Shown: positions 13,421 through 56,075, counted from the first letter of the stretch. The stretch: DNA of 64,000 bases from Candidatus Curtissbacteria bacterium (GCA_016183325.1 JACPEV010000003.1:18000-81999); one strand, 5' to 3'. Notes: generated from the letters alone by a model not told the origin. Numbers and translations: made by a program.

Positions 13421-13556
13421 AGAAACTATATTTAAAAAAAGGCGCTAGTTCGCGCCTTAGACTCTTAACTTTCTAAAATGCAATCGGATTTTAGCAAAAT
13501 AGTATACTTGAGTCAACTTTATGAATGAACAGAGCTTGCTGAAAACCTAAGCCAAA

Positions 13557-40495: not shown

Positions 40496-42376
40496 ATGGA
40501 CATTTTGAAAGATTTAAATTCAGACCAGATTGCTGCAGTTAAGCAAACCGACGGCCCGGTTTTAATTTTAGCAGGTGCTGGCAGCGGAAAAACAAGAGTT
40601 TTGACATATAAGGTTGCCTATTTGATTCAAAAAGGGATCAGACCGGAAAATATCATTGCCATGACATTCACCAACAAAGCGGCCAATGAGATGAAAGAGA
40701 GGGTCTATCGTCTCCTCCACCTCCGAGGCTTCGGCCGTGAGCTCAGCCGAATCGGTGAAAGCTCCTCACACCTCGGAGGTGTTGCCGGCGGTGATTCACC
40801 ATTTGTTGGGACTTTTCATGCTTTTTGTGCAAAACTACTCCGACTTGACGGCAAATTTATTGGAATACCATCGGGCTATTTAATTTATGACGATGACGAC
40901 AGTCTGAGTTTAATTAAAAAAATTATGTCTGATAACAATATTTCGGTTAAAAATTTCAGGCCGAGTTCAATTTTGAACGCTATTTCTTCTGCAAAAAGTG
41001 AATTAATCGGGCCGACCGATTACATACAGTTTGCAAGAGGTTACTTTGCTGAAACGGTTGCCAAAGTTTATGAACCATATCAGGCGACTTTACATGAAAT
41101 AAATGCTTGCGACTTTGATGATCTTTTAATGCAGACAGTTAGACTTTTTCGAGAATATCCAAATGTCCTTGAAAAATGGGCAGTGCGATTCCAGTACGTA
41201 TTGGTTGACGAATATCAAGACGTAAATACCGCTCAATATGTTTTAACTAAACAACTTGCAAGTGTCCATGGTAATCTGACAGTGGTCGGTGATGCATCCC
41301 AGGCGATTTATTCTTTTAGAGGAGCGGATTTTAGGAATATTTTAAACTTCGAAAGAGACTTCCCTAAGGCGAAGGTTTTTAATTTGGAGCGAAATTATAG
41401 ATCAACTCAGACAATACTTTCGGCTGCAAATGTAGTGATTGCTAAAAACAGTTCACATCCGATTTTGAAACTTTGGACAAAAAACGATCAGGGTGATCTG
41501 ATTAGTACTTACAATGCCCACAATGAAGTCGATGAGGCGAATTTTATTGTTGAGATGATAGTTTCTTCGGGTAAATCGTTGTCTTGCTTCGCTGTACTTT
41601 ACCGAACTAATGCTCAATCAAGAACGATTGAGGAAGCACTCCTTCATGCCAATATTCCCTATAAACTGTACGGCGGGGTAAGTTTCTATGCCAGAAAGGA
41701 AGTCAAAGACGTCTTAGCTTACTTAAGATTGATTGCCAACCCACGCGACAACGTTTCCAAAAATCGGATTGAGAAATTGGGTAAGAAGCGGTATGAGAAA
41801 TTTGAAGAGCTGGTTAAGAGATTCCAAGGGTCGGACCCTCAAGAAAGAAAAGGTTCTAAAAAGGGTCCGACCCTAAATAGGTTGCCACCGATAGATCTTA
41901 TTGATAAAGTTTTGGCGGCAACTGATTACCTAGCACTGATCGATGATGGTTCGGAACAAGGATTATCTCGAGTTGAAAACGTAAAGGAATTACGATCTGT
42001 GGCTGCTGACTTTGAAAATTTGGCAACTTTTTTGGAAGCGGTTACTTTGATGGAGGGTAAGGTTGCCCCTGATAAATCGTATGAGGCCGAGTCTGACTCG
42101 GTGAAGTTGATGACTTTGCATGCTGCAAAGGGATTGGAGTTTGATAATGTTTTTATCATTGGTATGGAGGAAGGACTCTTTCCCCATTCGCGCAGTATGC
42201 TAGACGTGGCGCAGCTTGAGGAAGAAAGAAGATTGGCTTATGTGGGCATGACGCGGGCAAAGCAAAAATTGTACCTAACTTATGCCACAAACCGCCTTTA
42301 TTTTGGAACCCAAAGTTCCAATTTAGTTTCGCGATTTGTGGTGGATATACCGGAAGAATTAATAACCCCCATCTAG
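40496..42376 (+). CDS. pcrA: UvrD/PcrA-family DNA helicase
   Basis: Walker A AGAGSGKT, motif VDEYQD, GDASQAIYSFRGA, and C-terminal YVGMTRAK. 626 aa. Contains a GC-rich palindromic in-frame insert (40713-40781) encoding LHLRGFGRELSRIGESSSHLGGV. Confidence 0.85.
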   Translation: MDILKDLNSDQIAAVKQTDGPVLILAGAGSGKTRVLTYKVAYLIQKGIRPENIIAMTFTNKAANEMKERVYRLLHLRGFGRELSRIGESSSHLGGVAGGDSPFVGTFHAFCAKLLRLDGKFIGIPSGYLIYDDDDSLSLIKKIMSDNNISVKNFRPSSILNAISSAKSELIGPTDYIQFARGYFAETVAKVYEPYQATLHEINACDFDDLLMQTVRLFREYPNVLEKWAVRFQYVLVDEYQDVNTAQYVLTKQLASVHGNLTVVGDASQAIYSFRGADFRNILNFERDFPKAKVFNLERNYRSTQTILSAANVVIAKNSSHPILKLWTKNDQGDLISTYNAHNEVDEANFIVEMIVSSGKSLSCFAVLYRTNAQSRTIEEALLHANIPYKLYGGVSFYARKEVKDVLAYLRLIANPRDNVSKNRIEKLGKKRYEKFEELVKRFQGSDPQERKGSKKGPTLNRLPPIDLIDKVLAATDYLALIDDGSEQGLSRVENVKELRSVAADFENLATFLEAVTLMEGKVAPDKSYEAESDSVKLMTLHAAKGLEFDNVFIIGMEEGLFPHSRSMLDVAQLEEERRLAYVGMTRAKQKLYLTYATNRLYFGTQSSNLVSRFVVDIPEELITPI

Positions 42377-50607: not shown

Positions 50608-50800
50608 AGCTTCTCGACCTCGTCCTTCGACACATTCGATATCAGCCTTCACCTTCGGTGAATCTGATATATCAGAGGAGCGTCATTGAATCGAAGATTC
50701 AAGACGACCTGCTGATATAAACTCAGTGCAAGCAAGCTCAGGACTTCGCTCGAAAAAGAAAGAATTTTATTGTTCGAGCGTTAGCGAGAACTATTAAATA
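50608..50800. mobile_element. long-form MITE (inverted orientation relative to 58711-58912) plus an adjacent short-form fragment
   Basis: The core tcgacacattcgatatcagccttcaccttcggtgaatctgatatatcagaggagc...gacctgctgatataaactcagtg is the reverse complement of 58755-58865 at about 85%. It is followed by ttattgttcgagcgttagcgagaac. Confidence 0.65.
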
Positions 50801-51053
50801 ATAATTCTTTCTTCTGCCTACTAAAATCTTTTAATTGATGTTCTCGATCTCTAGCCTGAATTATTTCTGTAAATTCTTCTACGTAACAGAGCCTTTTGAA
50901 ACCATGTCTGGATGTAAATTTAGACCCTTTACCAATTTTATGCTGTTCCATTCTTTTTTCTAAATCCCAGGTAATTCCGGTGTAATAAAAACCGTCTAAA
51001 CATTCAATAATGTAAACATACCACTTCCATTGTTTATTTAATGAACTTCTCAC
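50781..51053 (-). CDS. small GIY-YIG nuclease-superfamily protein
   Basis: WYVYIIECLDGFYYTGITWDLEKRMEQH is a canonical GIY-YIG N-terminal motif. 90 aa, stand-alone domain. Confidence 0.75.
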   Translation of the reverse strand: MRSSLNKQWKWYVYIIECLDGFYYTGITWDLEKRMEQHKIGKGSKFTSRHGFKRLCYVEEFTEIIQARDREHQLKDFSRQKKELLFNSSR

Positions 51054-51153: not shown

Positions 51154-54100
51154 TTACTGTATTTTTGCTAAAGAAAAAGGACAAATGCTGTTATAGGCGC
51201 AGTAAACACAAGCCGGTTCGCGGCCGAAATATTTGGGGTTGGCGACAAAAGAATTATTTTTGGTATCACGGCGGATTTTGTCGGCAGTTTCCAAAATCAA
51301 CTCTTCGGTTTTTTCTAAATCTTTTTGAGTGGGAGTGTGTGCTCCTTCGATGCCGGTTTCCAAGAAGTTGAGGACGACCTTTTCGGGAACGATCCTGTGG
51401 CGCTTAAAGTAGTAAAGCGCGTAGATAGCAAGCTGAATTGATTCTTTAGCCTGAGAATCGGCTTTGTCTTGATCGATGTTTTCGGAAGATTTGTAATCGA
51501 TGATGGTGATTTTCCCGCCAGGTTTTACATCTACCCTATCAAAACGACCGGTAATCGTGACACCTTTTAGCGCGAAATCGAACCTTGCTTCGATAAGGCT
51601 GGGCAGATCTTTTGATTTTGATTCTCGTTGCCAAAAATTTTGGAGGGCAAGTTTGCCTTGAGATTTTCTTTTTTCTTCATGTTCGATGGTTAAAAATCCT
51701 TCACTATCCCAAGCGTTTTCGAAAATTTCCAAAAGCTGGGGAAGGGTTAAAATCCTGCCGCTTTTTTTGGCCCGGAAAAATCCGGCAACGGCGCTGTGGA
51801 GAGCGGCACCGTATACGATAGCGTGATGCCTGAGAGTAGGAATTCTAAGGATATGAATATAGCGGTATTTGTAGGCACACGTTAGATAATCGTCGATTGA
51901 ACCTTGGGTAAGTTTTAAAACATCGACATCGAAAAGTAAAGTTTGGGTTGTGCGGGTAGGTGTTGGTGCAAATTTTTCGATTTTTTCCAGTGGTGAGAGT
52001 CTGGCAATCTCCGCGTCTGATTTGATCTTATCTAATGCTTCCAGCACAAACGGGGATATTTTTTTGACTCTGGCTCCACCAATATCGCGAGACCAGGAAA
52101 AGTAAAGCAAATCTTTAGCACGAGTCATGCCGACATAGAAAAGGCGCCTTTCCTCTTGTTGGTGCCAATCACCGATGGGCAGAGTTTCTTTGATCAAGAC
52201 TTCGGGAACCTCGATGGCATCACCTCGCGCGCGTGTTGGGAAACGATCGGCAACTAAATTGACCAAAAAAACGACCGAAAATTCCAAACCTTTGGCGCCA
52301 TGGACAGTCATTACATTGACGGCATCCACTTCTGGATCAAACTGGACTGTGGCAGGGTCATCACCAGCCCCCCGAATCGCTTCGAGATAATCGACGAATT
52401 GGGTGACTGATTCGACCTTAGCTACGTCAACAAATTCTTTAATTTTATCGAAGAATTTTGCAATATTCTGGATTTTAAGCTGATTTTCAACGCCGCCTTG
52501 CCTTTCTAACTTTTTGAGATAACCGGTTGTTTTCAAAAAGCCGTAGGTAACTTTGCCTACATTTTCGCGCCTGGAGAGTTTAATTGACTCATCAAGATCT
52601 AACAAAAGTTTTTCGATGATGGCTTTGGACTCTTCTGATAGGTCTAAATCTGATATTCCACTGTCATTCTGGCCCTTCGGCAGTGAGCTGCTCAGGACAG
52701 TCGAACTGCTTGTCCAGAATCCGCTTTTTTTGATTCTGGAGTCGTCGCTTCGCTCCTCCCCAGAATGACGGTGTTGGGGTGTAAGTCTATCTAGATTTTT
52801 TAGAACATAATAAAGTGAGCGATTTTTTCTTTTGGCGTATGAAGCGAGTTTGATGGCATCGGCAGGCGGCATTTTGTAAACATCAGATGTACTGAGATTA
52901 AAAAGGTTAAGACTATCTTCAAAATTGGAAATGGCTGTTAAGAAAGAGATTAGGAGATTTACTTCTTCCTGCTGGTATAGGCCTGATGAACCGACAAATT
53001 TATGGGGAATACCCTTCATATTAAGAGCGCGCAAGAAATGGTCGGCTTGGGCGTTGGCGCGAACAAGAATGGCGAAATCGCGATATGAATAACCATCTCT
53101 GCCACCTCCGAGGTGTGAGGAACTTTCACCTCGGAGGTATTTGCTTCTTTTAGCCATTAACTTTTCAATTTCTGCAGCCACTAGATCAGCTTCTTCTGAA
53201 ATTGTATCGGCGAAAATTTCCTGAGGGGATAAGCCATGCCTTATTCCAAGCTCACCCCGGGGGTGTAACCAGACAGCCTTTAATTTTTTATCTATTTTGT
53301 TTTGGACTTCCAGCCGGTCGGGGTCATTGTGGCGGATGAGACGATAAGCACTATTTAAAATGGATTGGGTTGAACGGTAGTTTTGGTTTAGAACCACTTG
53401 GTGGGCTTTTGGATATGTTTTTTTAAACTCTAAAATGTTTGAAATTGCAGCGCCGCGGAATTTGTAGATTGAATTATGAACAACAATATTGTTTGCAATA
53501 AAATTATGCGTTTTTTCAATTTCAAGATCATAGACTGTTAGTGTTTTTTCTTCTTCTGTGATTTCAATTATTTCATCATAATAAACCCGATTATTAACAA
53601 CTATCGGTACACGATGGCCAAGAACTAGATTACTTGCTGGCATTATCAGGGCTGGCTTGCTCTGAAAGCTTGCAAAACCTAAAGCGAATTTTGCCTCTAG
53701 AAAACCACCAGTAAAATCAGTTATTTTTTGTGCGAGTTTGCCCAGATTTAACAAATCGCTGCTTTGAATTCTTAATCTTAGGCCTTTTTTTGCTTTCTGG
53801 AGTTGATAGCCCGCATCTTGCAATAGTTTAATTATCTTAGGATTAGTGGTCTCTAAGTGCAGTGTGTGGGCTATCAATGGGCTTTTAAGAATTTCCTTGG
53901 ATTTGGAGTGATAATTTCTTGAACAGATTTCCAAATTAATTTTTATTCTTCGACTTGATCCTCGAGTGACTGCATTTAAGGTATAGTGAGAAGAATTGAG
54001 GTCTATATGTAAGTCTTGAGCCAGTTTAGCAGCGTTAGCATAACTATCAATATCTTTGTATAACTTCATGAGGGAATCTCCTTTTATTTCAATTCCAATC

Positions 54101-55386
54101 CGTTCTTGAAAAACCGTCGGTGGAATCCCGTATTTGAGAGCCCAAAACATTTCGTAATATCTTGCTTCAGAATCTGTTCTAAATGCTCTTATGCCTATTA
54201 TTTTATCAGCAGATCTTTCCAGCCTAAGTCTCGTAGCAAGATCATTAGTAACTCCAATTCTCCAACCTAAGTTCTGTCTATACATCAAATAAACATAGTG
54301 ATACTGGTTTTGGGAGACTTTGGATGGGACATAACAGAAAACTTTATGATTGTCGGTTAATGTTAGCTTACATCCACTTTTTGTTTTAACCGTTAATAAG
54401 CGTGCAGTTTTTCTGTTCTTGAAGACCTTTGTTATCTTTGAGATGCCTAAGTGACCTTTACCAACCGCAGTTAGAACTTGGTCGCTAATTTTGAGCTTTT
54501 CAATCTTTCTCTTGCCATTGGAAGTAGTAATGAGAGTGCCAGGAGGCAAGCATTGATCATCGTCGCCAACAACACAGATGTTTTTGTGACTGGCGGCGAG
54601 CAATTTGACCAGTTCGTTTTGGGCATAATTGGTATCTTGGTATTCATCGACTAAGATGTATTTGAATTGATCTTGATATTTTTTGAGAATTTTGGGGCGC
54701 TTTTGGAAAAGTTCGATGGTTTTGACAACTTGATCACCAAAATCCAAAAAACCGGCTTCGTCTTTAAATTTCTCGTATTGCTGATAAGAACTTGCTAATT
54801 CTTGATATTTCTTGGCTTCGATCCTTCGACTTCGCTCAGGACCTTCGGTTTTCTCTTCTTTTCTGGCGTCAGTTGCCAGTCGTTTAGAGTATAGCGAGAA
54901 TTCCTCCGGATTGATGTTTTCGTCCTTAAGTCTGGAGAAAAAAGAAAGAATTGCAGAGATGAATTTTGTAGGATTAGAAAGTGGAAGATAGTACTCTAGA
55001 TTAAACCTGAAAAGGTTTTGTTGGAAAAAGAGAACTTGTTGAGGGCGAGAAAGAACTTTGAAATCTGGAGAAAGACCAATTTCCAGAACATTGTCGCGCA
55101 AAATTCTGTCACCAAAAGCATGAAAGGTAGAAATCCAGGTGTCGATAAAACCGTAAGGGACAAGTATATCCACGCGTTCTTCCATTTCGGCGGCAGCTTT
55201 GTCGGTAAAGGTCAGCGCCAAAATTTCCGAAGGTTTGGCGAGGCGTTTTTCAATAATGTAGGCAATACGTCTTGCGATAACGGCGGTTTTGCCAGTGCCA
55301 GCACCGGCGATTATTAAAAGCGGCCCTTCGGTTGTGGTAACCGCCTGTTTTTGCTCAAGGTTGAGATCTTTGAGAATATCTGACAT
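51154..55386 (-). CDS. UvrD-like helicase fused to a C-terminal PD-(D/E)XK (RecB/Cas4-like, 4-Cys) nuclease domain. Contains an intein and two in-frame palindromic inserts.
   Basis: Walker A AGAGTGKT, VDEYQDT, VVGDDDQ|C...HN|SIYKFRGA (motif III split by the intein), and C-terminal CxxCxxxxxC cluster (EPACVYCAYNSICPF). 1410 aa precursor. Confidence 0.8.
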   Translation of the reverse strand: MSDILKDLNLEQKQAVTTTEGPLLIIAGAGTGKTAVIARRIAYIIEKRLAKPSEILALTFTDKAAAEMEERVDILVPYGFIDTWISTFHAFGDRILRDNVLEIGLSPDFKVLSRPQQVLFFQQNLFRFNLEYYLPLSNPTKFISAILSFFSRLKDENINPEEFSLYSKRLATDARKEEKTEGPERSRRIEAKKYQELASSYQQYEKFKDEAGFLDFGDQVVKTIELFQKRPKILKKYQDQFKYILVDEYQDTNYAQNELVKLLAASHKNICVVGDDDQCLPPGTLITTSNGKRKIEKLKISDQVLTAVGKGHLGISKITKVFKNRKTARLLTVKTKSGCKLTLTDNHKVFCYVPSKVSQNQYHYVYLMYRQNLGWRIGVTNDLATRLRLERSADKIIGIRAFRTDSEARYYEMFWALKYGIPPTVFQERIGIEIKGDSLMKLYKDIDSYANAAKLAQDLHIDLNSSHYTLNAVTRGSSRRIKINLEICSRNYHSKSKEILKSPLIAHTLHLETTNPKIIKLLQDAGYQLQKAKKGLRLRIQSSDLLNLGKLAQKITDFTGGFLEAKFALGFASFQSKPALIMPASNLVLGHRVPIVVNNRVYYDEIIEITEEEKTLTVYDLEIEKTHNFIANNIVVHNSIYKFRGAAISNILEFKKTYPKAHQVVLNQNYRSTQSILNSAYRLIRHNDPDRLEVQNKIDKKLKAVWLHPRGELGIRHGLSPQEIFADTISEEADLVAAEIEKLMAKRSKYLRGESSSHLGGGRDGYSYRDFAILVRANAQADHFLRALNMKGIPHKFVGSSGLYQQEEVNLLISFLTAISNFEDSLNLFNLSTSDVYKMPPADAIKLASYAKRKNRSLYYVLKNLDRLTPQHRHSGEERSDDSRIKKSGFWTSSSTVLSSSLPKGQNDSGISDLDLSEESKAIIEKLLLDLDESIKLSRRENVGKVTYGFLKTTGYLKKLERQGGVENQLKIQNIAKFFDKIKEFVDVAKVESVTQFVDYLEAIRGAGDDPATVQFDPEVDAVNVMTVHGAKGLEFSVVFLVNLVADRFPTRARGDAIEVPEVLIKETLPIGDWHQQEERRLFYVGMTRAKDLLYFSWSRDIGGARVKKISPFVLEALDKIKSDAEIARLSPLEKIEKFAPTPTRTTQTLLFDVDVLKLTQGSIDDYLTCAYKYRYIHILRIPTLRHHAIVYGAALHSAVAGFFRAKKSGRILTLPQLLEIFENAWDSEGFLTIEHEEKRKSQGKLALQNFWQRESKSKDLPSLIEARFDFALKGVTITGRFDRVDVKPGGKITIIDYKSSENIDQDKADSQAKESIQLAIYALYYFKRHRIVPEKVVLNFLETGIEGAHTPTQKDLEKTEELILETADKIRRDTKNNSFVANPKYFGREPACVYCAYNSICPFSLAKIQ
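52661..52772. repeat. GC-rich composite palindromic element inserted in-frame in the helicase gene
   Basis: tgtcattctggcc...gtccagaatcc...gattctggagtcgtcgcttcgctcctccccagaatgacgg, translated in the helicase as ...TPQHRHSGEERSDDSRIKKSGFWTSSSTVLSSSLPKGQNDSGISDL... Paralog of the intergenic copy at 60522-60613. Confidence 0.75.
53103..53140. repeat. GC-rich palindromic element (cacctccgaggtg family) in-frame in the helicase gene
   Basis: cacctccgaggtgtgaggaactttcacctcggagg encodes ...GESSSHLGGG..., the same peptide motif inserted in pcrA. Confidence 0.7.
53473..54552 (-). mobile_element. intein (~360 aa) inserted in helicase motif III, with a putative GIY-YIG-like homing-endonuclease region
   Basis: Block A CLPPGTLITTSNGK, block B LTLTDNHKVF, block F/G VYDLEIEKTHNFIANNIVVHN followed by the +1 Ser of the extein. 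The internal YHYVYLMYRQNLGWRIGVTNDLATRLRLE resembles a GIY-YIG core. Confidence 0.75.
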
Positions 55387-55419: not shown

Positions 55420-55836
55420 TTAGGATAATACTTCTATTTTTAGACCGTTGATTTTTCGCGGCAACCTTCGGTCTGCAGTTACGAAAATCTCTGCGCCTGA
55501 CTCGAGAGCAGTGGCCAGGTGAATTGCGTCTGGAGTTCTTATCTGCTTATATTGCGCTCGAATTTGAGCAGATTTGATTGCTATATTTCTAGTAAAATCG
55601 ACTATGGAAATATTGCCAGAATTGGATATGAAATTTAAATATGCGTGCACTTTTCTAATTAATCCTTCTTTGTAGACACCAACAAGTATCTCTTGGAGTG
55701 TTAAAACGGATGTGAAGACTTGAAGATTTGTTTCTTTTATCTCGAAAAGTTTTTTTCTAGATGCGTTGCCTGACCTGCCTTTATTTTCTAATGCATAGAT
55801 AAAGATATTGGAATCTAAGGCGATTTTTAATCCCAC
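55420..55836 (-). CDS. vapC: PIN-domain toxin (VapC family)
   Basis: MGLKIALDSNIFIYALE...FVTADRRL. Confidence 0.7.
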   Translation of the reverse strand: MGLKIALDSNIFIYALENKGRSGNASRKKLFEIKETNLQVFTSVLTLQEILVGVYKEGLIRKVHAYLNFISNSGNISIVDFTRNIAIKSAQIRAQYKQIRTPDAIHLATALESGAEIFVTADRRLPRKINGLKIEVLS

Positions 55837-56075
55837 GAATTTCTTTCTTCATCAAGATATTTTTCGATATCTTTGGTATTTTTCCATAATCCCCTTAGAT
55901 TCTTAATGTAATCGTCAGGCCAAACCCATGCCCGCTTACCCGGCTTTGGTGACAGAATAATCTGATTTCCCTTAGTATCAATGTCCAGTTTCTGACCAGG
56001 TTTAACCTTAATCTTTTTGCGGATTTCTTTGGGTATGACTACTTGATATTTGGTACTGACAGACGTTTGGATCAT
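55827..56075 (-). CDS. AbrB/SpoVT-type antitoxin
   Basis: MIQTSVSTKYQVVIPKEIRKKIKVKPGQKLDID swapped-hairpin motif. Overlaps the PIN gene start. Confidence 0.6.
   Translation of the reverse strand: MIQTSVSTKYQVVIPKEIRKKIKVKPGQKLDIDTKGNQIILSPKPGKRAWVWPDDYIKNLRGLWKNTKDIEKYLDEERNSWD

What the first reader, a model, noticed from the sequence alone, without database searches (positions are those of the whole stretch)
53473..54552. Intein in motif III of a UvrD-like helicase-nuclease, possibly carrying a GIY-YIG-type homing endonuclease
Canonical intein blocks (CLPPGTL..., TDNHK, VYDLE..HNF.ANNIVVHN+S) interrupt the VVGDDDQ/SIYKFRGA helicase motif. The ~200 aa between the splicing blocks contains YHYVYLMYRQNLGWRIGVTNDLATRLRLE, which resembles a GIY-YIG core rather than the usual LAGLIDADG or HNH endonuclease. 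That would be an uncommon intein architecture.

The host gene is itself notable: UvrD-like helicase plus C-terminal 4-Cys PD-(D/E)XK (Cas4/AddB-like) nuclease, additionally invaded by two palindromic elements.
Basis: partly seen in the sequence, partly recalled or inferred. Interest (0 to 1): 0.65.

Follow-up and report, generated by a model that had tools for sequence, protein, structure and literature searches.

The report
Helicase intein carrying a GIY-YIG-like nuclease
A self-splicing protein insert (intein) sits in the ATP-binding motif of a DNA-repair helicase, and its central domain looks like a divergent GIY-YIG nuclease, a type of homing endonuclease that the literature I could search does not report inside inteins.

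Summary
Window 53473-54552 (minus strand) encodes a 360-aa class-1 intein: Cys1, block B TDNH, terminal His-Asn, Ser+1. It is inserted between VVGDDDQ and SIYKFRGA (motif III) of a 1410-aa UvrD-type helicase with a C-terminal 4-Cys PD-(D/E)XK nuclease, in a Candidatus Curtissbacteria genome.

The 225-aa insert matches no Pfam, NCBIfam or PHROG family. Its first about 65 residues are predicted as beta-beta-alpha-beta-alpha. A profile of this part scores true GIY-YIG proteins at up to 22.7 bits, against 9.3 bits at most for 690 shuffled or reversed controls. hhalign gives 80.7% probability.

The GIY tyrosine, the helix arginine and the metal-binding glutamate are about 99-100% conserved in 98 diverse inteins, as conserved as the splicing residues. 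The YIG tyrosine is replaced by Arg and the helix His by Glu.

The family is large: 295 clusters at 50% identity, nearly all at helicase motif III. It includes phi92-like coliphages, where intein-plus and intein-minus alleles coexist and substitutions cluster at the insertion site. All 80 best orthologous loci retrieved, among them 13 at 73-83% identity that include named Curtissbacteria, have an empty site.

I read it as a mobile intein with a divergent GIY-YIG-type homing endonuclease: a new variant of a known kind. Nuclease activity is untested.

The parts
51154..55386 (-). Host gene: 1410-aa precursor of a UvrD/PcrA-type SF1 helicase fused to a C-terminal PD-(D/E)XK nuclease (NCBI MBI2326870.1, Candidatus Curtissbacteria)
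   Evidence: ORF. Pfam UvrD-helicase 2.2e-73, UvrD_C 3.7e-47, PDDEXK_1 2.9e-30. Exact match in the protein collection.
54553..55386 (-). N-extein (host residues 1-278), ending in the motif III first half ...NICVVGDDDQ
53473..54552 (-). Intein, 360 aa, class 1 (Cys1 ... His359-Asn360, followed by Ser+1)
   Evidence: Pfam and NCBIfam intein models. Model pLDDT 88.5. Foldseek matches to inteins. Residue coordinates checked.
54325..54552 (-). Hint N-terminal splicing part (intein residues 1-76): block A CLPPGTL, block B TLTDNHKVF (T66, H69)
   Evidence: TIGR01445 residues 1-72. C1, T66 and H69 are conserved at 0.97-0.98 in 98 inteins.
54103..54303 (-). GIY-YIG-like subdomain (intein residues 84-150). 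Strands 85-92 and 96-102, helix 105-111, strand 117-124, helix 127-141. Key residues Y88 (54289-54291), R98, G100, R108 (54229-54231), E112, E134 (54151-54153), Y141, P144.
   Evidence: Secondary structure. Profile comparisons. Conservation.
53968..54102 (-). Linker with two helices (intein residues 151-195)
   Evidence: Helices 158-168 and 170-181 in the model. Moderately conserved.
53653..53967 (-). C-terminal alpha/beta subdomain of the insert (intein residues 196-300; beta-beta-alpha-beta-alpha-beta). Inferred DNA-recognition module and the most variable part of the intein.
   Evidence: Model. Weak Foldseek match to the phage T4 MotA DNA-binding domain (prob 0.87, E 0.09). Highest entropy of all regions. 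The DNA-binding role is an inference.
53473..53652 (-). Hint C-terminal splicing part (intein residues 301-360): PALIMPASNLVLGHRVPI, block F VYDLEIEKTHNF, block G NNIVVHN
   Evidence: TIGR01443, and PDB mini-intein alignments. D342, H359 and N360 conserved at 0.97-0.99.
51154..53472 (-). C-extein (host residues 639-1410), starting with the motif III second half SIYKFRGAAI
51178..51912 (-). PD-(D/E)XK nuclease domain with four cysteines (C1170, C1393, C1396, C1402), AddB/Cas4-like
   Evidence: PF12705 residues 1159-1403, E 2.9e-30. Cas_Cas4 3.6e-4, below threshold. Cysteine positions.

Best explanation
A mobile class-1 intein whose homing endonuclease is an in-frame, divergent GIY-YIG-type nuclease.

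Proposed mechanism:
1. The helicase-nuclease is translated as a 1410-aa precursor whose ATP-binding motif III is split.
2. The Hint domain (Cys1, Thr66/His69, Asp342, His359-Asn360, Ser+1) excises the 360 aa. It joins ...VVGDDDQ to SIYKFRGA..., giving an active helicase. This step is inferred from intact canonical residues.
3. The released intein is a bipartite endonuclease. Its GIY-YIG-like catalytic module would use Tyr88 as general base, Arg108 (with Arg98) for transition-state stabilisation and Glu134 (possibly with Glu112) for the metal. A helical linker and a variable alpha/beta module would read DNA. All of this is inferred.
4. It would cut intein-less alleles at or near the highly conserved motif III coding sequence. 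Recombinational repair from the intein-bearing copy then copies the intein in, which is homing. This is inferred.

Shown by sequence data: empty sites in the closest relatives, presence/absence polymorphism in coliphages, and clustered flank substitutions at the insertion site.
For: Intein identity.

GIY-YIG relationship:
- Predicted beta-beta-alpha-beta-alpha core.
- hhalign 80.7% probability, E 1.3e-5, over 63 columns against a PF01541 profile. One reversed and 60 shuffled controls reach 46.9% at most.
- The HMM of the domain scores PF01541 proteins at up to 22.7 bits, against 9.3 bits at most in 690 controls.
- The top two PDB sequence hits are both GIY-YIG (1zg2, 1ywl), though not significant.
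- Pfam GIY-YIG and MUG113 are the recurring sub-threshold hits.
- BFVD sub-threshold hits are dominated by GIY-YIG, Seg and T5orf172 proteins.
- GVTNDLATRLRLE in the intein lines up with GVTNNIDARMKIH in a true GIY-YIG protein, with the same G+8 Arg spacing.

Selection for function:
- The GIY-like part is the most conserved region of 98 inteins drawn from 50%-identity cluster representatives.
- Y88, R98, G100, R108, E112, E134 and P144 are at 0.99 or above, equal to the splicing residues.
- Free-standing derivatives have lost every splicing residue but keep these motifs. They sit next to, or inside, UvrD helicase genes.

Mobility:
- 80 of 80 best orthologous loci have an empty site, including 13 at 73-83% identity.
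- The nearest intein relative is only 53% identical.
- Intein DNA has lower GC, 0.32-0.38 against 0.40-0.48 for the exteins.
- Deletion variants exist.
- In phi92-like coliphages, 38 records are intein-plus. Others are intein-minus with about 98% identical exteins. The difference is a precise 1038-nt presence/absence. 25 of 53 extein differences fall within -27..+50 nt of the site.
Against: - No curated model (Pfam, NCBIfam, PHROGs, PADLOC) recognises the domain in the window's own sequence.
- Foldseek against PDB found no GIY-YIG structure in the top 50 and nothing at E <= 1e-3. The GIY-YIG hits in BFVD are all sub-threshold, E 0.02-0.09.
- Two classical positions differ: the YIG Tyr is Arg98 and the helix His/Tyr is Glu112. 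The conserved Asn could not be located.
- Intein and extein identities co-vary across the family (r = 0.82). Much of the history could therefore be vertical, with losses.
- No near-identical intein-less allele of this particular gene was found in metagenome contigs.
- Nuclease activity, target site and splicing are all untested.
Confidence: 0.7

Rival explanations
1. The insert descends from a GIY-YIG domain but no longer cuts DNA. It is kept as a DNA-binding, folding or regulatory module, for example one that makes splicing of the helicase conditional. The intein would persist by vertical descent rather than by homing.
For: - Two of the classical catalytic positions are replaced: Tyr to Arg98 and His to Glu112.
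- Intein and extein identities correlate, r = 0.82.
- Conservation is unusually high for a selfish endonuclease, which could reflect a host-beneficial role.
- Insertion in an ATPase motif is typical of the inteins proposed as post-translational switches (PMC4760082).
Against: - The substituted positions are themselves invariant charged residues (Arg, Glu), as expected of an altered but live active site. Tyr88, Arg108 and Glu134 are at 99% or above.
- The closest orthologues lack the intein.
- Coliphage alleles show precise presence/absence with substitutions clustered at the site.
- Free-standing copies without splicing residues keep the motifs.
Confidence: 0.15
2. The resemblance to GIY-YIG is convergent or spurious. 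The insert is a new fold of nuclease or DNA-binding domain unrelated to GIY-YIG.
For: - No significant hit to any curated GIY-YIG model or solved GIY-YIG structure.
- hhalign probability is only 80.7%, and one block-shuffled control reached 46.9%.
- Short beta-beta-alpha-beta-alpha units are common.
Against: - Several independent methods point to the same superfamily and the same register. These are an HMM against sequences, profile against profile, Pfam sub-threshold hits, the top PDB sequence hits and the BFVD structural neighbours.
- The conserved Tyr, Gly, Arg and Glu fall at the canonical spacings.
Confidence: 0.12
3. The insert is a degenerate LAGLIDADG or HNH endonuclease of the usual intein kind.
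For: Weak Foldseek matches of the C-terminal subdomain to halves of LAGLIDADG meganucleases (E 0.14-0.9, prob <= 0.28).
Against: - No LAGLIDADG or HNH Pfam hit at E <= 1 for the intein or the insert.
- No LAGLIDADG motif in the alignment consensus.
- LAGLIDADG inteins superpose only through Hint, with TMq 0.25-0.29 and rmsd above 20 A.
Confidence: 0.03

Closest known systems
Intein of the UvrD/Rep helicase of phi92-like coliphages (e.g. Escherichia phage PaulScherrer bas60_0082, phi92 gp198)
   Same: Same family:
- Same insertion point (VVGDEFQ | C/S-IYQFRG), same Hint + insert architecture and same conserved insert motifs.
- tblastn E 4e-5.
- The 924-aa BFVD top hit (A0A140G655, unnamed in the table; E 5.8e-11, TMq 0.61 over 194 columns) has the length of this helicase precursor. 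It is probably the same protein.
- The phage protein is annotated 'intein' in GenBank.
   Different: About 34% identity, 346 against 360 aa, and Cys instead of Ser at +1. The host is a 578-aa phage helicase without the PD-(D/E)XK domain. The annotation says nothing about the type of endonuclease.
GIY-YIG homing endonucleases such as I-TevI (group I intron-encoded or free-standing)
   Same: A bipartite layout: small N-terminal catalytic domain, linker, then DNA-binding module. The beta-beta-alpha-beta-alpha core is shared. Tyr (GIY), Arg (helix 1) and Glu are conserved at matching spacings. The target is a conserved gene of nucleic-acid metabolism.
   Different: - Embedded in frame inside a Hint splicing domain, not in an intron or an intergenic region.
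- The YIG Tyr is Arg and the helix His is Glu.
- No NUMOD, zinc-finger or helix-turn-helix modules were detected.
- Below the Pfam PF01541 threshold.
UPF0213/YhbQ-type small GIY-YIG proteins (PDB 1zg2, 1ywl; window ORF 50781-51053)
   Same: Best-scoring bona fide GIY-YIG relatives: 22.7 bits and hhalign 80.7%. The minimal core length is similar, and the G-x-T-x5-R-x3-(H/E) spacing is identical.
   Different: These are stand-alone proteins of about 90 aa with the canonical Tyr-Tyr-Arg-His-Glu set. They are not associated with inteins.
LAGLIDADG- and HNH-bearing class-1 inteins (PI-SceI, PI-PfuI, Mtu RecA, phage HNH inteins)
   Same: Same splicing chemistry, blocks and Hint fold. The endonuclease is inserted at the same topological position, after block B. 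The insertion lies in an ATPase active-site motif.
   Different: The endonuclease fold differs. No LAGLIDADG or HNH signature is present.
'Fractured genes' with free-standing GIY-YIG or Vsr-like endonuclease genes between split-intein halves (Dassa et al. 2009, PMC2677866)
   Same: An intein context is associated with a GIY-YIG nuclease. The related loci L086 and L087 show a helicase gene in pieces around the nuclease ORF.
   Different: In Dassa et al. the nuclease is a separate gene and the Hint halves stay on the host fragments. Here nuclease and Hint are one polypeptide. In the fractured relatives the now inactive Hint stays with the nuclease, not with the helicase halves.

Membership tests
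Intein (class 1, Hint superfamily) | N-terminal Cys/Ser nucleophile and a Thr-x-x-His block B | tested here: met
   Cys1 (54550-54552) and T66-D-N-H69. Conserved at 0.97-0.98 in 98 homologues.
Intein (class 1, Hint superfamily) | C-terminal His-Asn followed by Ser/Thr/Cys at +1; block F Asp | tested here: met
   H359, N360, S+1 and D342. TIGR01443 E 5.6e-7.
Intein (class 1, Hint superfamily) | Hint fold | tested here: met
   Model pLDDT 88.5. Foldseek against PDB gives 23 hits at E <= 1e-3, inteins apart from two hedgehog autoprocessing domains, which share the Hint fold. TM normalised to the target is about 0.8 for Mtu RecA and Ssp DnaB mini-inteins.
Intein (class 1, Hint superfamily) | In-frame insertion whose removal restores a conserved host motif; intein-less homologues exist | tested here: met
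   Removal gives VVGDDDQSIYKFRGAAI, identical to the uninterrupted orthologues in 80 of 80 loci. The in-window paralogue PcrA is uninterrupted.
Intein (class 1, Hint superfamily) | Protein splicing actually occurs | not testable with these tools
   Needs expression and detection of the ligated 1050-aa helicase and the free 360-aa intein.
GIY-YIG nuclease superfamily | Three-stranded sheet with flanking helices (beta-beta-alpha-beta-alpha core) | tested here: inconclusive
GIY-YIG nuclease superfamily | Significant sequence or profile similarity to established members | tested here: inconclusive
   For: 22.7 bits against 9.3 at most in 690 controls, and hhalign 80.7%. Against: the Pfam PF01541 gathering score is not reached. 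There is no hit for the window sequence, and 2 of 31 relatives hit at E 0.085. PDB hits are at E 0.13-0.44.
GIY-YIG nuclease superfamily | Catalytic Tyr of the 'GIY' strand | tested here: met
   Y86-V87-Y88. Y88 is conserved at 0.99 and aligned to the YVY of PF01541 proteins.
GIY-YIG nuclease superfamily | Tyr of the 'YIG' strand | tested here: not met
   The aligned position is Arg98, conserved at 0.99. An aromatic residue (Trp97 here, mostly Tyr elsewhere) precedes it. Gly100 is conserved.
GIY-YIG nuclease superfamily | Arg in helix 1 (I-TevI R27), with His/Tyr four residues later | tested here: inconclusive
   Arg108 is at G+8, invariant (1.0), with the same spacing as in UPF0213. The +4 position is an invariant Glu112 instead of His/Tyr.
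GIY-YIG nuclease superfamily | Metal-binding Glu in the following helix (I-TevI E75) and downstream Asn | tested here: inconclusive
   Glu134 is conserved at 0.99 and aligned to the family Glu. No conserved Asn was found. Y141-G-I-P144 is conserved instead.
Homing endonuclease (functional class) | Sporadic distribution with precise presence/absence at one site | tested here: met
   Empty sites in the closest orthologues. Intein-plus and intein-minus phi92-like phages have about 98% identical exteins, with substitutions clustered at the junction.
Homing endonuclease (functional class) | Site-specific cleavage of the intein-less allele | not testable with these tools
   Requires a biochemical assay.
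LAGLIDADG / HNH intein endonucleases | LAGLIDADG motifs (PF14528 and relatives) or an HNH beta-beta-alpha-metal motif | tested here: not met
   No such Pfam hit at E <= 1. Superposition on LAGLIDADG inteins is limited to Hint.

The most novel reading that the evidence does not exclude
This is one member of a large, unrecognised class of inteins. Their homing endonuclease is an in-frame GIY-YIG-type nuclease with an altered active site (Tyr-Arg-Arg-Glu-Glu instead of Tyr-Tyr-Arg-His-Glu). The class is specialised on motif III of SF1 helicases across many bacterial phyla and phages. Its members have repeatedly given rise to free-standing Hint-nuclease genes that sit beside helicase genes or split them in two. 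That would add a further endonuclease family to the intein repertoire and provide an HO-like domestication series in bacteria and phages.
Probability: 0.55. Interest if true: 0.75.

Novelty: new variant of a known kind. Interest (0 to 1): 0.62.

Why it matters
Reviews and surveys that I could read list LAGLIDADG and HNH as the in-frame intein endonucleases, and more recently Vsr-like and endonuclease VII-like genes in other reading frames (bioRxiv 10.1101/2025.01.02.630785). Two of them state explicitly that GIY-YIG enzymes are not known in inteins (PMC1564403, PMC2677866).

An in-frame GIY-YIG-type intein family would show that inteins recruited this nuclease fold too. It would widen the rules for how a bipartite, sequence-tolerant nuclease can be nested in a Hint domain. 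It could also supply compact self-excising nucleases for engineering.

The same family occurs in E. coli K-12 phages, with natural intein-plus and intein-minus alleles. Splicing, cleavage specificity and homing are therefore directly testable in a standard laboratory system.

Tried and rejected
- Pfam, NCBIfam, PHROGs and PADLOC scans of the insert found nothing.
- PDB sequence search with the single intein found only Hint matches.
I give it no weight.
- Foldseek of the insert against PDB gave no significant hit. It produced weak leads to the MotA C-terminal domain and to LAGLIDADG halves, which I do not regard as established.
- An exact-match search of metagenome contigs for the spliced junction of this gene, meaning an intein-less allele of the same strain, found nothing.
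- A hidden endonuclease in another reading frame or on the antisense strand, as in some actinophage inteins, is rejected. No other ORF of 60 aa or more lies inside the intein.
- A defence-system role for the host gene is rejected. The PADLOC hits are generic UvrD similarity.
- Literature searches for 'GIY-YIG intein', 'UvrD intein' and phi92 + intein found no description. The library lacks most subscription journals, so prior description cannot be excluded.

Full report
**1. What is in the sequence**

The finding lies in one long ORF, window 51154..55386 on the minus strand, 1410 aa. Pfam finds four domains in it:
- UvrD-helicase, E 2.2e-73, residues 8-279.
- An intein splicing domain, E 4.9e-17, residues 310-638.
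- UvrD_C, E 3.7e-47, residues 664-1100.
- PDDEXK_1, E 2.9e-30, residues 1159-1403.

The helicase match stops at residue 279 and resumes after 638. The intervening 360 aa start with CLPPGTL and end with NNIVVHN, followed by Ser. Codon by codon, Cys1 is 54550-54552, Asn360 is 53473-53475 and Ser+1 is 53470-53472.

The NCBIfam intein N- and C-terminal models hit at E 1.8e-9 and 5.6e-7. PDB sequences of CDC21, DnaB and RadA mini-inteins align to block F/G.

An AlphaFold2 model built on 13 sequences has pLDDT 88.5 and pTM 0.85. Foldseek against PDB returns 23 hits at E <= 1e-3, inteins apart from two hedgehog autoprocessing domains, which share the Hint fold. Mini-inteins are covered at TM about 0.8.

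Removing the 360 aa gives NICVVGDDDQ-SIYKFRGAAI, the SF1 helicase motif III (my knowledge of UvrD/PcrA motifs). This is the sequence seen uninterrupted in orthologues.

The exact protein is in NCBI as MBI2326870.1, 'UvrD-helicase domain-containing protein [Candidatus Curtissbacteria bacterium]', on a 165,637-bp contig. The neighbouring ORF is 100% identical to a Curtissbacteria protein.

The host's C-terminal nuclease has four cysteines, C1170, C1393, C1396 and C1402, in the AddB/Cas4-like pattern.

**2. The insert between the splicing blocks**

Intein residues about 77-300 match no family in Pfam, NCBIfam, PHROGs or PADLOC. There is no LAGLIDADG or HNH hit at E <= 1. No other reading frame inside the intein holds an ORF of 60 aa or more.

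The insert is nevertheless a conserved, well-folded unit. A second model of residues 74-300 alone, built on 31 sequences, has pLDDT 89.2. It shows three parts, in intein numbering:
- Strands 85-92 and 96-102, helix 105-111, strand 117-124, helix 127-141.
- Two helices, 158-181.
- A beta-beta-alpha-beta-alpha-beta unit, about 204-290.

An exhaustive HMMER search with the insert against 1.84 billion cluster representatives found 295 proteins at E <= 1e-3 and 83 at E <= 1e-10. Inspection of the junctions shows that nearly all are SF1 helicases interrupted at the same place..(V/A)GDxxQ | C...HN | (S/C)IYxFRGA.

**3. Is the first subdomain GIY-YIG?**

Several independent tests agree, though none reaches a curated threshold.

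(a) Profile against profile. A 140-sequence alignment of residues 81-156 was compared with an alignment of 115 bona fide PF01541 proteins. These are homologues of window ORF 50781-51053, itself PF01541 at E 4.8e-15. The result is hhalign probability 80.7% and pairwise E 1.3e-5 over 63 columns. Controls:
- Reversed template: 0.2%.
- 30 column-shuffled templates: 9.7% at most.
- 30 block-shuffled templates: 46.9% at most.
- The C-terminal part of the insert as query: 0.1%.

(b) HMM against sequences. The HMM of the intein subdomain scores true GIY-YIG proteins at up to 22.7 bits. At least 25 of them exceed 12 bits. The best of 690 reversed or shuffled versions is 9.3 bits.

(c) Among 177,635 PDB sequences, the two best hits of the subdomain profile are both UPF0213 GIY-YIG proteins, 1zg2 (E 0.13) and 1ywl (E 0.44). 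Neither is significant on its own.

(d) Scanning 31 family members against Pfam at a permissive threshold, GIY-YIG is matched by two members. MUG113, which to my knowledge belongs to the same Pfam clan, is matched by one.

(e) Foldseek of the insert against BFVD first finds three viral proteins at E 5.8e-11 to 1.4e-5. They are 782-924 aa long, and two are named, as a DNA helicase and a DNA methyltransferase. I take them to carry the same insert, since the alignments cover 127-212 columns. Then comes a long sub-threshold list in which the named proteins are mostly GIY-YIG endonucleases, Seg-type and intron-associated endonucleases, and T5orf172 proteins.

The alignments share one register. YVY88 matches the GIY strand and G-x-R98-I-G100-x-T the YIG strand. 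GVTNDLATR108LRLE112 lies on GVTNNIDARMKIH of a true member, so Arg108 is at the canonical G+8 position. EA..E134 matches the metal-binding Glu.

I put homology to the GIY-YIG superfamily at about 0.8. The domain is a divergent member: the YIG tyrosine is an invariant Arg98, the helix His/Tyr is an invariant Glu112, and I could not identify the conserved Asn.

**4. Is the domain functional?**

I aligned 98 full-length inteins of the family, drawn from 50%-identity cluster representatives. The GIY-like subdomain is the most conserved region:

| Region | Mean column entropy | Columns at >= 0.9 |
|---|---|---|
| GIY-like (84-150) | 1.95 | 13 |
| Hint-N (1-76) | 2.41 | 7 |
| Hint-C (301-360) | 2.14 | 4 |
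| C-terminal subdomain (196-300) | 2.93 | 0 |

Y88, M90, R98, G100, E112 and E134 are at 0.99. R108 and P144 are at 1.0. These values equal those of C1 (0.98), H69 (0.98), H359 (0.98) and N360 (0.99). The window's copy has all of them. This argues against a decaying remnant.

A variable C-terminal module behind a conserved catalytic module is the layout of bipartite GIY-YIG homing endonucleases (PMC2677866; my knowledge of I-TevI). Its weak Foldseek similarity to the DNA-binding domain of T4 MotA (prob 0.87, E 0.09, 53 columns) is only a lead.

Two further observations fit a nuclease that matters in its own right.

First, deletion variants exist. P0015 lacks almost the whole insert, and P0039 lacks the GIY-like part. 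This is what the homing cycle predicts.

Second, three complete ORFs of 362-378 aa (P0073, P0093, P0114) consist of the whole intein-like body. They lack Cys1, the TxxH block and the terminal His-Asn, but retain the insert motifs.
- P0114 abuts a complete 509-aa UvrD-type helicase gene.
- P0093 lies between two halves of a UvrD helicase gene, in a phage-like neighbourhood. The N-half ends after motif II. The C-half begins MPFVAIFDQDQLLFRFNGA, which is motif III.

These read as intein-derived free-standing endonuclease genes.

**5. Mobility**

A scan of one genome per species (GTDB) with the N-terminal 345 aa of the spliced host protein confirmed 355 relatives. All of the best 80 have an uninterrupted motif III, among them 13 at 73-83% identity that include named Curtissbacteria. 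The ranking favours uninterrupted matches, so this does not measure frequency. It does show that the closest relatives retrieved have an empty site.

Other points:
- The nearest relative of the intein itself is only 47-53% identical and sits in more distant hosts, including Omnitrophota and other Patescibacteria.
- Intein DNA has GC 0.32-0.38, against 0.40-0.48 in the exteins.
- Across the family, intein and N-extein identities correlate (r = 0.82). Long association with a host-gene lineage, or homing restricted to similar targets, is therefore part of the picture.
- An exact search for an intein-less allele of this very gene in metagenome contigs found nothing.

The clearest evidence comes from cultured phages. 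tblastn finds the insert in 38 phage records, mostly phi92-like coliphages. In two of the records listed the gene is annotated as an intein-containing UvrD helicase, with no statement about the endonuclease.

Megablast with the PaulScherrer gene gives 38 records with the full 2775 nt at 82.5-100% identity (97.6% or more in all but one of those listed). Other records of the same genus cover 61% in two pieces at 97.6-98.1%.

I compared PaulScherrer with phage alia:
- The difference is a precise 1038-nt (346-aa) presence/absence.
- 25 of the 53 extein substitutions lie within -27 to +50 nt of the insertion site.
- Within 60 nt of the site, 11 of the changed codons are synonymous and 7 non-synonymous.

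Such clustering is what co-conversion of flanks during endonuclease-initiated repair would produce. Selection for cleavage-resistant target sites would also produce it. Both interpretations are inference, and I could not tell them apart.

**6. Mechanism proposed**

- Shown: an intact class-1 intein in motif III, a conserved insert, empty sites and polymorphism.
- Inferred: the precursor splices to give the 1050-aa helicase-nuclease.
- Inferred: the free 360-aa intein binds the motif III coding region of intein-less alleles through its C-terminal module. It cuts with a one-metal GIY-YIG-type site formed by Tyr88, Arg108 and Glu134, with Arg98 and Glu112 replacing the usual Tyr and His.
- Inferred: recombinational repair then copies the intein.

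**7. Comparison with what is known**

UvrD inteins are known as a category: 16 were listed in PMC4760082. The phi92-type copy is annotated in GenBank.

The literature I could search does not describe a GIY-YIG-type endonuclease inside an intein:
- PMC1564403 (2006) states that GIY-YIG members have not been found in inteins.
- A 2025 survey (bioRxiv 10.1101/2025.01.02.630785) lists LAGLIDADG, HNH, Vsr-like and endonuclease VII-like only.
- Phrase searches for 'GIY-YIG intein' and 'UvrD intein' returned nothing relevant.

The searchable library lacks most subscription journals, so earlier mention cannot be excluded.

**8. Verdict**

It is a new variant of a known kind: a class-1 intein whose endonuclease is a divergent GIY-YIG-type domain. 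It belongs to a large and so far uncharacterised family, and is testable in E. coli phages. The main gaps are a strict structural superposition and any biochemical evidence of cleavage or splicing.

Noticed in passing
L086:2540-6531 (also L087); L084:927-3560 (also L085): These are free-standing relatives of the intein: complete ORFs of 367-378 aa with Hint + GIY-like + C-terminal module. They lack Cys1, block B TxxH and the terminal His-Asn. One lies between the two halves of a UvrD helicase gene, split just before motif III, in a phage-like neighbourhood. Another directly abuts a complete 509-aa UvrD-type helicase gene. They look like intein-derived free-standing homing endonuclease genes and a helicase 'gene in pieces'.
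   Followed up: partly
L001 (MZ501100.1, phage PaulScherrer) 2294-3331 versus L089 (MN850632.1, phage alia) 301-2037: phi92-like E. coli phages carry the same intein family in their UvrD helicase. Intein-plus and intein-minus alleles coexist with about 97-98% identical exteins. 25 of 53 extein differences cluster within -27..+50 nt of the insertion site, and the +1 residue is Cys in one allele and Ser in the other. A 2024 paper (PMC11162368) states that no inteins have been reported in coliphages.
   Followed up: partly
window 53105-53137, and 40757-40790 in the paralogue: A perfect 11-nt-arm palindrome, CCTCCGAGGTG-N11-CACCTCGGAGG, lies in frame in the host helicase (peptide GESSSHLGGG). A nearly identical piece, GGTGAAAGCTCCTCACACCTCGGAGGTG, lies in frame at an unrelated position of the second helicase gene, pcrA (peptide GESSSHLGGV). 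This is a small repeat element tolerated inside coding sequence.
   Followed up: partly
window 52659-52773: This is a second in-frame insert in the host gene. It is bounded by 14-nt inverted arms (CCAGAATGACRGTG, 93% complementary, 87 nt apart) and encodes a low-complexity Ser/Gly-rich stretch. The same 14-mer, with one mismatch, recurs at 13555 and 60602. That makes 4 matches against 0.03 expected.
   Followed up: partly
window 40496-42376 (+): A paralogous PcrA-type helicase, 626 aa, has an uninterrupted motif III (VVGDASQ-AIYSFRGA). It is an intein-free potential ectopic target in the same genome. Its DNA at the site was not compared in detail with the homing site.
   Followed up: partly
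window 50781-51053 (-): A stand-alone 90-aa GIY-YIG protein (PF01541 E 4.8e-15, UPF0213/YhbQ-like) is encoded just downstream of the host gene. It has many close homologues in Curtissbacteria and other Patescibacteria. It is only distantly related to the intein's nuclease domain and served as the reference family for the profile comparison.
   Followed up: yes
window 55420-56075 (-): A toxin-antitoxin pair lies immediately upstream of the host gene: a PIN-domain (VapC-like) protein, PF01850 E 9.9e-19, and a MazE/AbrB-type antitoxin, PF04014 E 2.4e-12. Their ORFs overlap by 10 nt.
   Followed up: no
window 53653-53967 (-): The C-terminal subdomain of the insert gives weak Foldseek matches to the 'double-wing' DNA-binding domain of T4 MotA (prob 0.87) and to halves of LAGLIDADG meganucleases (prob <= 0.28). 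Its fold family remains unassigned.
   Followed up: partly
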